In this document: one piece after another, positions 48,965 through 55,138 of the stretch | How the letters are laid out: the number at the start of each line of letters is the position of its first letter | Numbering within the stretch: the first letter of the stretch is position 1 | Assembly (NCBI RefSeq): GCF_009914755.1 | Contig: NC_060935.1 | Strand: one strand, 5' to 3' | Source of the DNA: the human T2T-CHM13v2.0 reference genome, Homo sapiens | Length of the DNA stretch: 64,000 nt | Position numbers and translations under genes: made by a program | Notes under the pieces: model-generated | The model's database searches: none | What the model was told of the DNA's origin: nothing | Seen by the model: the letters and a program-made list of their open reading frames with translations, nothing else

Positions 48965-50243
48965 CTAGCAGTATATCCTCAGGCAATTAACTTTTTTTTC
49001 CCTTGTTTCTCTCTCTGTAAAAAGGAAGAGGAATACTTATTTTGGCAGGTTATAATAAGAATTGAGTCAAACTCATTTATGTTGGCATAAAAAAATGAAC
49101 AAGAAAATATAAAGCACTTAGTACAATGCCAGGCAGATCATAGGAACTCAGTAGATGGCAATTGTAATATTACAAAAGGTGATGGAAGTCAAAGACAATT
49201 TACTGTACCTCAAGAGAGTAGCGGTAGGATCAGAAGAATTTCCCAAATGTGTTCACAGACCAAAACTGGGGGAAAAGCAGGGTAGTTTCCTGGTAAGACG
49301 AACAGCACATGACAAGGCAGAGATATTAAAAAGTAAGGTACGCTTCCAGGACGAGTTCATTATTCCTGAAGGGAGAAGGCAATAAGGGTGGAAAAACTGG
49401 GCCGAGAGGGGAATCCAGGTTGGTGATGCCCCTGGAGGGCAGGTAATTCTTACTAATTTCTGTATTTTCTGCTGCTGGCACAAAACGTGACCCATACGTT
49501 TGCAACAAATGGTGAAATAATTCATTCCTGTTGTTAAGCAATAGGGTTGTAGAAATATTTGAGCAGTAAACATGCTACAGTGAAAGGATTCTCGGATTTG
49601 GAGTCAGGAGACCTGAAGCACTCTTTTGACTAATGACCTGTGTTTTTTTACTGGTTTTACAACTTACCTGCTGCCTGGCCTTACCAAAGTACTGATATAT
49701 TGAGTCTCTTGACCCATAAAACAGGGGTAACAACTAACAAGCGATTATTAAAGAGTTGGCGCTAGTAAAGTACGCAATAAAAACAGCGGCTGCAGCTGCT
49801 AAATTCTCCTTTAGGTCTTTTTCCATACTTGCGAAATGACAGGGCAACAAATTTCCTTCCAACCACCACTGAGAAAGTATACCACGTTTGCCCAAGGACA
49901 AAAAGGCCCCGCCCGGCCCGCGCCACACAGGTCACCTACGCAGAATGCAGTCCTGGGGGGTTCCACTTGTGTCGCTCAGCGATGGAGGGCGCGATCGATG
50001 ACAGGCCACTCCAGAGACGGACCTAGATAGGTTCGCATGAGGCCGAGCCGAATTTCACCAAAAACCAGTTTACACCACCTCCCGATTTGTCCACACGAAA
50101 AGCCATGGAATAGCTGAGGGAAAGGAAACCGGAAGTAGCGTGGGCCGTGAGGAACGGGAAATGACCTCAGCACGTCGGAAGTGTACTCGTTTCCAAGGCG
50201 ACGGCCCTGCTGCCTCTCCAGCCAAGTGGCTGGAGTCGGGAGG

Positions 50244-51143
50244 CTGGAAAGAGACTCCGAGAAAGTACCAGCGGAAGGCGGCCGCCGCTACGGCGATTCG
50301 CAGGGAGTAGCAGACGAAGACGGTGGCCGCCGCACTAGCCACCACGTGTGGAGGATAAACGGTCTACACGGCCATTCCGGCGCCGAGTCTAGGGAAAGAG
50401 TTAGCGACGACGGGGAAAGAAAATGTGAAGAGAGCGACCGCCGCTCCAGGGTCGCTGCAGGAAGCCTAAGTGCAGACGCCGGCTTCTCCCGCAGTGACTT
50501 GAGAAGGGTCAGTGAAAACCTCGGCCACTGCCGCAGCGTCTCTAGGGAGAGAGTTAGGGGAGATAGTGGCCACAGTCACAGCTGCTCTTGGGAGAGAGTT
50601 AGGGGAGACAGCACCTTCTGCAGCAGCGACGTGAATTTTAGTGAAGTTGGAGGCCACCAAACTACCGACTCCAGGGGAACAGCCAGAGAAGACCGAGGCC
50701 TCCGCCTCAGTGGTCCTTGGGAGGGAGTCAGTGACATTCGGGACCCGCGAACTAGTGACTTCGGGGATAGAGTCAGTGACGATCGCAGTCGCCGCTTCAG
50801 TGGCTCCTGGGAGGGAGGGAGTGTCGAAGGCGGCCACAGCGTTGGTAGTTCTTGGGAGGAAGTAAGTGGAGACCGCGGCTACGCAGCCAGCGACTCCTCT
50901 GGTGTGAGCGGCAGTGAAGACGCCAGCTACCGCTTCAGTGGCTTTTGGGAGAGAGAAAGTGAAGACGAAGGTTTCCGCTGCAGCTTCTGGGAGAGAGCAA
51001 GAGAGGACCTTGGGCCCCGTCCTAGTGACGACGGAGAAGAGGGCCGCTGCCGCTGCAGTGGCTCGTGGGTGAGAGCAAGTGAAGACCGCCGCAGCATCAG
51101 GGGCCTGGACTCAACTCCTCCCCAGAGTCGGAGGTGTTGCGCC
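50244..51143 (+). CDS. Putative CUG-initiated 300-aa N-terminal extension of ANKRD42
   Basis: Stop-free and in frame with ATG 51144; aggCTGg context; frame-preserving internal repeats. Translation is inferred, not shown. Confidence 0.5.
50385..51095 (+). repeat. Degenerate ~45-nt tandem repeat (core TGG GAG AGA GTC AGT GAC/GAA)
   Basis: Cores at 50391, 50544, 50589, 50718, 50808, 50853, 50946, 50988, 51066; 19-nt exact duplication at 50545/50590. Confidence 0.85.
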
Positions 51144-51201
51144 ATGCCCGGGGTGGCCAATTCAGGCCCCTCCACTTCCTCTAGGGAGACTGCAAACCCC
51201 T
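51144..51201 (+). CDS. ANKRD42: ANKRD42 coding exon 1 from the AUG start
   Basis: gccATGc; MPGVANSGPSTSSRETANP; donor CCT|gtgagt, phase 1. Confidence 0.88.
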
Positions 51202-52304
51202 GTGAGTCAGACTGTCATTGGCCTTCATCTCTGTCGTATTCCTTTTCTCACTTAAGCCCGCAACAGCCTTAGCCCTTTCTGGCATTTCCTTTTCTCAGCC
51301 GTCACTCCCCCCTTTCCCTTTTTAATTTATTTTCAGGGGATACCAAAGCTGTTCAGCTCTCCCCTGTTCTGTATTATTTCCGCTTTCTTTCCTTTTTTCC
51401 ATCCACACTATTCCTCCGAGTCTTCTTGCCCAGCTTGACATCAACTCTTGTTCAGTCTTAATGGACGGACCCTTTTAAGTTCTTCCTTGACTTCCCTGCA
51501 GCATTTGACCCTGTGGAGGTGACAAATTAGTACTTACTTAGTTTTCTTCTTTCACTCCATTGAGTGACCCTTTCCCTTACCGTTTTCTTTTCTTCTGCCA
51601 TCTTCTTAAATGCAGCTTTTACCCCTTGATGATGCCATCATTGGTTCTCTTTTTCTTGTCATTTACTGTGACTTCAGTCCTACTGGTGGCCCTCAAATCG
51701 GTTACTCATTCAACCATCCAGTAAATATTTACTGCATATGCCTACTTTGTGCTCCGTCTTAAGGAACTTAAGAAGACAGGCACATTCTTTACCTTCTAGT
51801 GAGGAAGATAAATGCTGAGCAAATAATGACAAGTGAGATCAGTGTTATAAAGGACGGTAGAATGCCACTGATTCCAGTAGGGGGTGAGTATGGGTGTCAG
51901 AAAAAGCATTCTAATACAGAGACACACGTAACACTGAGACCTGAATTCCGTATCTCTCCTCGGAGCTGCAAACATATATATAGATATCTCCCTTCTGGAA
52001 ATTTTCCTTGGGTACCTCAAGAGCAGCATGTCCAAAATGTAATTTTATATCTATATATCCTCTCTGTCCTTCAGTGTTTGCTGTCTCAACTAATGGCACC
52101 ACAGCACTCAGATGATAAAGCCACACACCTTGGAGTTATCTTATTACTTTTCCCTTGTTTCACCCACTGTATCCATTCCAGTTTAGTTCATTCTAATTTT
52201 ATTAATATTTGTTGAATCTTTCTCCTTTTCTTTTCCCAGTGTTCAGAGTCTCATTTTTTCTGGTCTAGACTATTGTAAACTGTATTCTTACATGATCTAC
52301 CTAC

Positions 52305-54937: not shown

Positions 54938-55138
<201 letters not shown>

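What the first reader, a model, noticed from the sequence alone, without database searches (positions are those of the whole stretch)
50181..51201. ANKRD42 '5' UTR' looks like a hidden ~300-aa non-AUG N-terminal repeat domain
Seen: 321 stop-free codons (50181-51143) run in frame into the ANKRD42 ATG, with no in-frame AUG. An in-frame CTG at 50244 has optimal context (A at -3, G at +4) and lies exactly 300 codons upstream. The peptide is made of ~15-aa units R-x-S-G-S-W-E-R/G-V-S-D/E-D (e.g. RLSGPWEGVSD, RFSGSWEGGSV, RFSGFWERESED, RCSGSWVRASED). The Trp codons (50589, 50718, 50808, 50853, 50946, 50988, 51066) are spaced 129, 90, 45, 93, 42 and 78 nt apart, so units vary in length but always by multiples of 3. 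The same repeat places TGA in another frame. Inference: selection on this frame, giving a CUG-initiated isoform with a disordered S/R/E/D/G-rich domain with periodic Trp (phospho-rich or condensate-forming) in front of the ankyrin repeats. I recall ANKRD42 possibly appearing in comparative non-AUG-extension screens, so novelty must be checked; I know of no function for the repeat domain.
Basis: partly seen in the sequence, partly recalled or inferred. Interest (0 to 1): 0.85.

Follow-up and report, generated by a model that had tools for sequence, protein, structure and literature searches.

The report
Known CUG-started ANKRD42 N-terminal extension
The long "5' UTR" of human ANKRD42 really does encode a 300-residue, disordered, tryptophan-studded repeat region that starts at a CUG codon, but this extension was already published in 2011, so only the description of its repeats is new.

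Summary
The ANKRD42 AUG frame is stop-free for 331 codons (50151-51143) and has no in-frame AUG. A CTG at 50244 (A at -3, G at +4) lies exactly 300 codons upstream.

Ivanov et al. 2011 (PMC3105428) describe this CUG-initiated, ~900-nt extension. They match it to the 92-95 and 65 kDa SARP bands of Browne et al. 2007.

- 21 placental ANKRD42 models carry the extension fused to the ankyrin repeats.
- Trp is its best-kept residue (91% identity).
- It consists of about nine homologous ~15-residue units, R-x-S-G-x-W-E-x-x-S-E-D, all in one phase by frame-blind repeat detection.
- AlphaFold gives no fold (pLDDT 47).
- It has no Pfam family, no paralogue in the human genome and no relative outside ANKRD42.
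- 34 marsupial-to-shark orthologue models start at the ancestral "MP" AUG, so it looks like a placental-only gain.

RefSeq's selected transcript still starts at the AUG.

Function is inferred only: a phospho-regulated array of short motifs next to the PP1-docking KVHF motif.

Verdict: real, already known, low interest.

The parts
50148..50150 (+). In-frame TGA that closes the frame upstream. No in-frame ATG lies between it and 51144.
50185..50243 (+). 59-nt leader between the RefSeq exon-1 start (50185, from the hub's gene table) and the CTG.
   Evidence: Gene table in the finding; sequence.
50244..50246 (+). CTG start codon of the extension, with A at -3 and G at +4. The Leu column is kept in 16 of 17 orthologue models.
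   Evidence: Ivanov 2011, sections 12-13.
50244..51143 (+). 300-codon N-terminal extension: 33.1 kDa, pI 5.5, 65% S/R/G/E/D, 8 Trp. Predicted disordered.
50423..50428 (+). The only ATG between the transcript start and the main ATG. It is out of frame and followed at once by TGA (ATG-TGA).
   Evidence: Same point in Ivanov 2011, section 13.
50364..51095 (+). Array of about nine homologous ~15-residue units, R-x-S-G-x-W-E-x-x-S-E-D. Units: U0 50364-50420, U1 50517-50573, U2 50562-50618, U3 50691-50747, U4 50781-50837, U5 50826-50882, U6 50919-50975, U7 50961-51017, U8 51039-51095. U0 and U1 lack the Trp.
   Evidence: DNA repeats; 12 of 36 unit pairs reach hhalign probability >=90, against 0 of 144 column-shuffled controls reaching >=50.
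50781..51143 (+). Best-conserved core of the extension. Trp at 50808, 50853 and 50946 is kept in 21 of 21 models. The stretch ASEDRRSSRGLDSTPP is nearly invariant.
51144..51201 (+). Annotated AUG and the rest of exon 1 (MPGVANSGPSTSSRETANP). Met is kept in 20 of 21 long models (Lys in Galemys). The 'MP' start is shared down to shark.
54965..54976 (+). K-V-H-F in exon 2, residues 24-27 of the AUG form. It is an RVxF-type PP1-docking motif directly behind the extension. The assignment as the PP1 motif is recalled from Browne 2007, which I did not see.
   Evidence: translation. Ivanov 2011 states that ANKRD42 binds PP1.
50507..50508 (+). Annotated alternative splice donor inside the extension (exon 50185-50507 of other transcripts). 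It removes units U1-U8 and the AUG. The CTG frame then runs out of frame in exon 2 and stops after 19 more codons.
   Evidence: Gene table in the finding.

Best explanation
Positions 50244-51143 are coding sequence. They encode the CUG-initiated, 300-residue N-terminal extension of ANKRD42 (also called SARP or IkB-eta), as published by Ivanov et al. 2011.

How the two isoforms arise (inferred). Some scanning ribosomes start at the CUG at 50244, 59 nt from the annotated cap site, in A(-3)/G(+4) context. The rest leak past it. They meet only a one-codon ATG-TGA on the way and start at the ancestral AUG at 51144. One mRNA therefore gives a long isoform about 33 kDa heavier and a short one.

What the extension is (shown here). 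It is an intrinsically disordered, acidic, Ser/Arg/Gly-rich region built from about nine diverged copies of a 15-codon (45-nt) unit, R-x-S-G-x-W-E-x-x-S-E-D. Its Trp residues are its best-conserved positions. It appears in placental mammal models only.

What it does (inferred, about 30-40% likely). Each unit is a short linear motif, with a Trp anchor flanked by phosphorylatable Ser. The array sits directly before the PP1-docking KVHF motif. The long isoform would then be a multivalent, phosphorylation-tunable version of the PP1-binding ankyrin scaffold.
For: In the sequence:
- The frame is open for 331 codons with no in-frame ATG. 0 of 5000 dinucleotide shuffles gave a fully open frame.
- Codon-position composition is strongly periodic: G 0.42, G 0.46 and C 0.435 at positions 1, 2 and 3.
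- Repeat copies found without regard to frame are all spaced by multiples of 3.
- The copies differ most at codon position 3: 0.32/0.32/0.42 for the 58-nt family and 0.19/0.34/0.48 for the 26-nt family.

In orthologues:
- 21 of 21 hits of 526-2000 aa are ankyrin-repeat proteins with this region fused in frame, at 46-77% identity. The 20 named ones are all placental mammals.
- Trp identity to human is 147/162 = 0.91, against 0.67-0.69 for S, D, G, E and R.
- One long model (Galemys) has Lys at the AUG position.

Start site:
- The context is good and the Leu column is kept in 16 of 17 models.
- The only intervening ATG is ATG-TGA.

In print:
- Ivanov 2011, sections 12-13, describes the same CUG and about 900 nt of extension. 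Predicted products are 89.6 and 57.3 kDa, against observed bands of 92-95 and 65 kDa.

Disorder and uniqueness:
- AlphaFold2 gives pLDDT 46.6 and no secondary structure for the human extension. In a full-length orthologue, nearly all of residues 1-348 score below 50 while the ankyrin part scores above 90.
- Repeat units are homologous: 12 of 36 pairs reach hhalign probability >=90, against 0 of 144 column-shuffled controls reaching >=50.
- There is no Pfam family. Only 12 hits appear among 1.84 billion cluster representatives, and all are collinear ANKRD42 exon-1-like fragments. The human genome holds a single locus.
Against: - No direct proof of the start codon was seen. There is no mutagenesis, N-terminal sequencing, ribosome-profiling peak or peptide. 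A peptide search of the paper library found 0 papers.
- Ivanov et al. report only weak purifying selection (Ka/Ks ~0.4) and rank the extension 29th of 42.
- At protein level the extension diverges 2.9 times faster than the rest of the protein: mean pairwise identity 0.565 against 0.845 over 298 pairs.
- ANKRD42 occurs only once in the supplements of Fedorova et al. 2022. It is in a list of genes not re-evaluated because GENCODE and RefSeq 5' UTRs differ, so it is in neither their phylogenetic nor their ribosome-profiling set.
- The orthologue evidence is ascertained. Only models that already include the frame can be found, and two are flagged LOW QUALITY.
- I could not obtain orthologous DNA, so I ran no dN/dS or frameshift count.
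- ATG depletion in the leader is not significant once dinucleotides are kept: 1 observed against 3.5 expected, and 402 of 5000 shuffles are as low.
- For the functional part, RRxS is not enriched (3 against 1.2; 1140 of 10000 shuffles reach it). No partner was tested.
Confidence: 0.8

Rival explanations
1. The region is translated, but the long isoform starts elsewhere. Candidates are an upstream AUG on a longer or alternatively spliced transcript (the original assumption of Browne et al., as reported by Ivanov) or another near-cognate codon such as GTG at 50226.
For: Gene models in whale, pangolin and a bat begin 'MT(A/I)ARRK', which is homologous to the human ATG at 50161. Models in lemur, hyena and beaver begin at an ATG homologous to human 49982. 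In-frame GTG 50226 and ACG 50154/50172 exist.
Against: - In this human assembly ATG 50161 is in phase +1 and its frame stops at 50308.
- ATG 49982 stops after 14 codons.
- An in-frame TGA sits at 50148.
- The RefSeq exon starts at 50185, downstream of all of these (gene table).
- Ivanov et al. note that about 50 ESTs do not extend further 5', and that a northern blot shows one 3.6-kb mRNA.
- GTG 50226 has C at -3.
Confidence: 0.07
2. The frame is kept open in placentals, but in human little stable protein is made. Translation from the CUG would then mainly tune how many ribosomes reach the AUG, or the extension is a decaying relic.
For: - Ka/Ks is ~0.4 and the rank is low.
- Protein divergence is 2.9 times faster than in the rest of the protein.
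- The region is fully disordered.
- It is not annotated as coding in the RefSeq transcript selected in the gene table.
- It is absent from the 2022 re-analysis lists.
Against: - Trp is 91% conserved and three Trp columns are invariant in 21 of 21 models.
- Repeat copies diverge most at third codon positions.
- A 92-95 kDa band matching the predicted 89.6 kDa is reported from tissue (original paper not seen).
Confidence: 0.08
3. The open frame is a chance by-product of a T-poor, G-rich 45-nt repeat in a CpG-island 5' UTR and has no coding meaning.
For: The region has only 16% T and is a CpG island (GC 0.61, CpG observed/expected 0.82). The antisense strand also has a 214-codon open run at 50469-51110. 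A repeat unit that is open in one frame stays open when copied at 3n spacing.
Against: - 0 of 5000 shuffles are fully open, with 11 stops expected per frame.
- The other + frames carry 8 and 24 stops.
- The same frame is read into the ankyrin repeats in 21 placental models at 46-77% identity, with in-frame indels only.
Confidence: 0.02

Closest known systems
ANKRD42/SARP CUG-initiated extension of Ivanov, Firth, Michel, Atkins & Baranov 2011 (NAR 39:4220, PMC3105428; ranked 29th in their Table 1)
   Same: It is the same object: the same gene, a conserved CUG in good context about 900 nt (300 codons) upstream of the AUG, a single ATG-stop in between, and leaky scanning proposed to give two isoforms.
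   Different: The sections I read do not describe the internal make-up of the extension. Their Table 1 and supplements could not be read.
Other long non-AUG N-terminal extensions of human proteins (PTEN, WDR26, EIF4G3 and RASD2 are among the genes named in the two non-AUG papers read; PTEN-L and MYC CUG forms recalled)
   Same: A near-cognate start in good context upstream of the annotated AUG, with leaky scanning giving C-terminally coincident isoforms.
   Different: At 300 codons this is the longest of the 42 new extensions in the 2011 set. It is made of an internal repeat rather than unique sequence.
Trp-motif arrays in disordered regions (GW/WG 'Ago-hook' repeats of GW182/TNRC6; W-acidic kinesin-light-chain motifs). 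Recalled, not tested against any library.
   Same: Periodic Trp flanked by small and acidic residues in a disordered, Ser/Gly-rich region, with Trp as the best-kept residue.
   Different: The human extension has 0 GW or WG dipeptides, against 2.1 expected from its composition. The position two before the Trp is G, S or C, not the Leu/Met of W-acidic motifs. The resemblance is one of style only.
Ankyrin-repeat PP1 regulators with an RVxF motif (MYPT1, TIMAP, ASPP2). Recalled.
   Same: An RVxF-type motif (KVHF) beside an ankyrin-repeat domain. ANKRD42 is stated to bind PP1.
   Different: None of these is known to me to carry a Trp-repeat N-terminal region or to use a CUG start.

Membership tests
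[quoted passage not shown] 2011) | Stop-free region in frame with, and upstream of, the annotated AUG, with no in-frame AUG in the transcript and a delimiting upstream in-frame stop | tested here: met
   331 open codons, TGA at 50148-50150 and no in-frame ATG.
[quoted passage not shown] 2011) | Near-cognate codon in good Kozak context, conserved in orthologues | tested here: inconclusive
   The context A(-3)/G(+4) is met in human. The Leu column is kept in 16 of 17 models. Codon identity in other species cannot be read from protein models. Conservation of the CUG is stated in print.
[quoted passage not shown] 2011) | Protein-coding pattern of evolution across species | tested here: met
   Tested at protein level only. 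21 of 21 long placental models read the frame. Trp identity is 0.91. Repeat copies diverge most at codon position 3. dN/dS could not be run here; the published Ka/Ks is ~0.4.
[quoted passage not shown] 2011) | Protein product of the expected size in vivo | not testable with these tools
   Reported second-hand: 92-95 and 65 kDa bands against 89.6 and 57.3 kDa predicted. Browne 2007 is not held. My estimate for the extension is 33.1 kDa.
GW/WG (Argonaute-hook type) Trp repeat | Multiple GW or WG dipeptides in a disordered region | tested here: not met
   0 GW or WG in 300 residues, against a shuffle mean of 2.14.
LIR-type motif ([W/F/Y]-x-x-[L/I/V]) | Trp followed at +3 by L, I or V | tested here: inconclusive
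   3 of 8 Trp fit (WERV, WEGV, WEEV). 334 of 10000 shuffles reach that count. No binding test was done.
Any curated protein or RNA family | Match to a Pfam-A model or an Rfam model | tested here: not met
   0 Pfam families at E<=1 for the 340-residue translation. 0 Rfam matches in 49800-51500.

The most novel reading that the evidence does not exclude
The extension is a coding domain born in the placental stem lineage. A 45-nt minisatellite in the 5' leader of an old, AUG-started gene expanded in frame and became translated from a CUG. Its units were then fixed as Trp-anchored, Ser-phosphorylatable short motifs. Because it sits directly before a KVHF PP1-docking motif that my sample shows only in therians, the long isoform would be a self-contained switch. 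The repeats would act as multivalent partner-binding sites, or as substrates or pseudosubstrates of the docked PP1. That would give placentals a regulated form of the ANKRD42/IkB-eta scaffold that other vertebrates lack.
Probability: 0.2. Interest if true: 0.5.

Novelty: already known. Interest (0 to 1): 0.2.

Why it matters
The main claim is in print, so its value is mostly practical. Fifteen years after publication the extension is still labelled 5' UTR in the RefSeq transcript selected for this window (gene table). It was also unannotated in GENCODE v35. As a result, 900 nt of likely coding sequence is ignored in variant interpretation, proteomics databases and antibody or knock-out design.

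The added description gives concrete handles for a first functional test of the long isoform:
- nine Trp-centred units
- predicted disorder
- no relatives outside ANKRD42
- a placental-only distribution in gene models
- a position directly beside the PP1-docking motif

It also offers a tidy example of a protein domain that grew out of a repeat in a 5' leader.

Tried and rejected
- AUG depletion as evidence for leaky scanning. One ATG was observed in 50185-51143 against 3.5 expected from dinucleotide shuffles, and 402 of 5000 shuffles are as low. This is not significant.
- A start-enhancing hairpin after the CUG. The fold of 50185-50345 has z = -2.3, and its strong stem begins about 33 nt after the CUG rather than the ~14 nt I recall as optimal. 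I give it no weight.
- Basophilic-kinase (RRxS) enrichment. Count 3 against 1.2 expected; 1140 of 10000 shuffles reach it (not significant). RxS (16 against 7.9; 17 of 10000) and S[DE][DE] (6 against 1.9; 65 of 10000) are enriched, but that may simply restate the repeat.
- Docking of the extension on the ankyrin domain. In the AlphaFold2 model of the full-length Sapajus orthologue (61-sequence alignment), nearly all of residues 1-348 have pLDDT below 50, so nothing can be said.
- Pfam gave no hit and Rfam gave no hit.
- Dating the extension through unnamed fragments. The 165-525 aa search gave 22 hits, only 3 of them named, all placental. The two most divergent fragments (P0033, P0034) have no names.
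- Literature. Browne 2007 is not held. The Ivanov supplement is unreadable. 'SARP2' searches found 0 papers. The 6 papers that hold 'SARP', 'protein phosphatase 1' and the Browne title phrase were seen as a listing only. The search for peptide LSGPWEGVSDIR found 0 papers. I therefore cannot say whether the repeat make-up is described in Browne 2007.
Full report
**Observation**

- The translation of 50181-51201 in the ANKRD42 AUG frame has no stop.
- Going upstream from the ATG at 51144, the frame stays open to 50151, just after a TGA at 50148-50150. There is no in-frame ATG.
- The other two + frames hold 8 and 24 stops.
- In 5000 dinucleotide-preserving shuffles of 50151-51143, none had a fully open frame. 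The mean was 11.0 stops per frame and the longest open run was 274 codons.
- The CTG at 50244 has the context GGGAGG-CTG-G and lies exactly 300 codons before the ATG.
- The seven Trp codons and their spacings are as listed. An eighth Trp at 50349 was overlooked.

**The 'multiples of three' argument**

A frame-blind test gives the same answer.
- The repeat finder reports six direct-repeat families, including 7 copies of 58 nt and 11 copies of 26 nt. Every start-to-start spacing is a multiple of 3: 21, 42, 45, 48, 75, 78, 90, 93, 120, 129, 132 and so on.
- All six TGGGAG and all ten AGTGA words are in one phase.
- Tandem Repeats Finder sees only the best-kept pair, a 45-nt period at 50523-50608.
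- Composition is strongly three-periodic: G 0.42 and 0.46 at codon positions 1 and 2, C 0.435 at position 3.
- Repeat copies differ most at position 3: 0.32/0.32/0.42 for one family and 0.19/0.34/0.48 for the other.

**What is in print**

A full-text search for ANKRD42 with 'non-AUG' found three papers, two of them listed.

Ivanov et al. 2011 (PMC3105428; sections 12 and 13 read) describe this case.
- ANKRD42/SARP has a conserved CUG in good context about 900 nt upstream of the first in-frame AUG. It is ranked 29th in their Table 1.
- The longest of their 42 new extensions is 300 codons.
- The predicted products are 89.6 and 57.3 kDa. The bands of Browne et al. 2007 are 92-95 and 65 kDa.
- A single mRNA is seen on a northern blot.
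- About 50 ESTs do not reach further 5'.
- Ka/Ks is about 0.4.

I confirmed the lone ATG-TGA at 50423. My mass estimate for the extension is 33.1 kDa.

Fedorova et al. 2022 (passage seen; supplements searched) list ANKRD42 among seven genes whose extension is not annotated in GENCODE v35. It could not be re-evaluated because GENCODE and RefSeq 5' UTRs differ. The gene appears nowhere else in their nine supplementary files.

Browne 2007 is not held. From memory only, that paper numbers the PP1 motif K354-V-H-F357. That numbering would mean its conceptual SARP1 protein already included this region.

**Orthologues**

The 300-residue extension found 21 proteins of 526-2000 aa. All 21 have ankyrin Pfam domains. 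Twenty are named, and every one is a placental mammal: primates, rodents, carnivores, bats, a whale, a pangolin, moles and an elephant. Identity is 46-77%. Two are flagged LOW QUALITY.

In a MAFFT alignment:
- The Leu at the CTG column is kept in 16 of 17 models.
- The Met at the AUG is kept in 20 of 21, with Lys in Galemys.
- Trp is the best-kept residue, at 147 of 162 cells (0.91), against 0.67-0.69 for S, D, G, E and R.
- Three Trp columns are invariant in 21 of 21.

The extension diverges 2.9 times faster than the rest of the protein. Mean pairwise identity is 0.565 against 0.845 over 298 pairs. This fits the published weak constraint.

This evidence has limits. It is ascertained, because only models that already read the frame can be found. 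I had no orthologous DNA, so I ran no dN/dS or frameshift count.

**Age and uniqueness**

- A search with the ankyrin part of the lemur protein listed the best 120 of 355 hits.
- Pooling the 120 listed hits with the set gave 121 proteins. Of these, 34 are named non-placental ANKRD42 models (marsupials, birds, turtles, a crocodile, amphibians, coelacanth, shark, sturgeon), all 499-543 aa long.
- The eight N-termini I printed have 7-25 residues before the KK(V)HF position. The non-mammalian ones printed begin 'MP' like human, while the four marsupial models begin differently.
- Long forms, with at least 150 residues before KVHF, occur in 22 of the 62 named placental clusters where my pattern found the motif, and in 0 of 34 non-placentals.
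- A non-AUG extension would not be annotated in marsupials, so their absence is weak evidence.
- phmmer against 1.84 billion cluster representatives found 12 hits, all collinear exon-1-like ANKRD42 fragments.
- The 165-525 aa search gave 22 hits, 3 of them named, all placental.
- The human genome has one locus, both by DNA and by six-frame protein search.
- There are no Pfam or Rfam matches.

**Anatomy of the domain**

- The extension is 65% S/R/G/E/D, has net charge -10 and pI 5.5.
- Nine hand-cut 19-residue units were compared profile against profile with hhalign: 50364-50420, 50517-50573, 50562-50618, 50691-50747, 50781-50837, 50826-50882, 50919-50975, 50961-51017 and 51039-51095.
- 12 of 36 pairs reach probability >=90 and 26 of 36 reach >=50. 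Among 144 column-shuffled controls, none reached 50.
- The motif [SG]-x-W-[EV] occurs 6 times against 0.38 expected (0 of 10000 shuffles reach it).
- AlphaFold2 on the human extension with a 31-sequence alignment gives mean pLDDT 46.6, pTM 0.13 and no secondary structure.
- In a full-length orthologue with a 61-sequence alignment, nearly all of residues 1-348 score below 50, while the ankyrin repeats score above 90 and a C-terminal coiled coil is modelled.
- Shallow alignments limit these models, but both fit intrinsic disorder.

**Mechanism**

Shown here: the frame is coding-like, conserved in placentals, repeat-built and predicted disordered. The CTG has a good context, and almost nothing blocks scanning to the AUG.

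Taken from print: two protein sizes that fit CUG and AUG starts.

Inferred: leaky scanning produces both forms.

Also inferred, at roughly 30-40%: the units are Trp-anchored short motifs flanked by phosphorylatable Ser, placed directly before the KVHF motif (54965-54976), and they modulate the PP1-binding scaffold. No test here bears on partners, phosphorylation or condensates.

**Verdict**

The finding is already known (2011, with protein data from 2007). Interest is low.

Noticed in passing
window 50161-50307 (+), with P0005, P0009, P0011 and P0026: The human ATG at 50161 lies upstream of the RefSeq start. It is in phase +1 and its 49-codon ORF ends at the stop at 50308. It encodes MTSARRK..FQGDG, homologous to the 'MT(A/I)ARRK' starts of whale, pangolin and bat ANKRD42 models. 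In those species the AUG is in frame with the extension, so some laurasiatherians may make the long form from an AUG.
   Followed up: partly
window 49982-50023 (+), with P0003, P0006 and P0007: A 14-codon human ORF (MEGAIDDRPLQRRT-stop) in the bidirectional promoter region is homologous to the 'MEGAIDDRP/MEDEIEGR/MEGVIDTRP' starts of the lemur, beaver and hyena models. These are probably gene predictors reaching for an upstream AUG.
   Followed up: no
window 54965-54976, with the orthologue N-termini printed: The RVxF-type KVHF motif is present in placentals and marsupials (KKVHF or KKIHF). It is replaced in the other vertebrates printed: bird KKKQNY, coelacanth KKKMF, Xenopus KKRIY, shark KKKSF. 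PP1 docking may therefore be a therian gain that preceded the placental extension.
   Followed up: partly
window 50507/50508: An annotated alternative donor inside the extension skips units U1-U8 and the AUG. The CTG frame then shifts in exon 2 and ends after 19 codons, giving a 107-residue product without ankyrin repeats.
   Followed up: partly
window 50469-51110 (-): A 214-codon stop-free run lies antisense to the extension. It is the only such run of >=200 codons on the minus strand of the window. It is probably a by-product of the codon-periodic composition.
   Followed up: no
P0027 and P0032: Two database 'proteins' align to the extension with systematic R-to-C, A-to-V, P-to-L/F, S-to-F and H-to-Y changes. 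They look like translations of C-to-T converted (bisulfite-type) reads of this locus that entered a public protein set.
   Followed up: no
window 51105-51107 (+): A second in-frame CTG in good context (G at -3, G at +4) lies 13 codons before the AUG. A product from it would not be separable from the AUG form on a blot.
   Followed up: no
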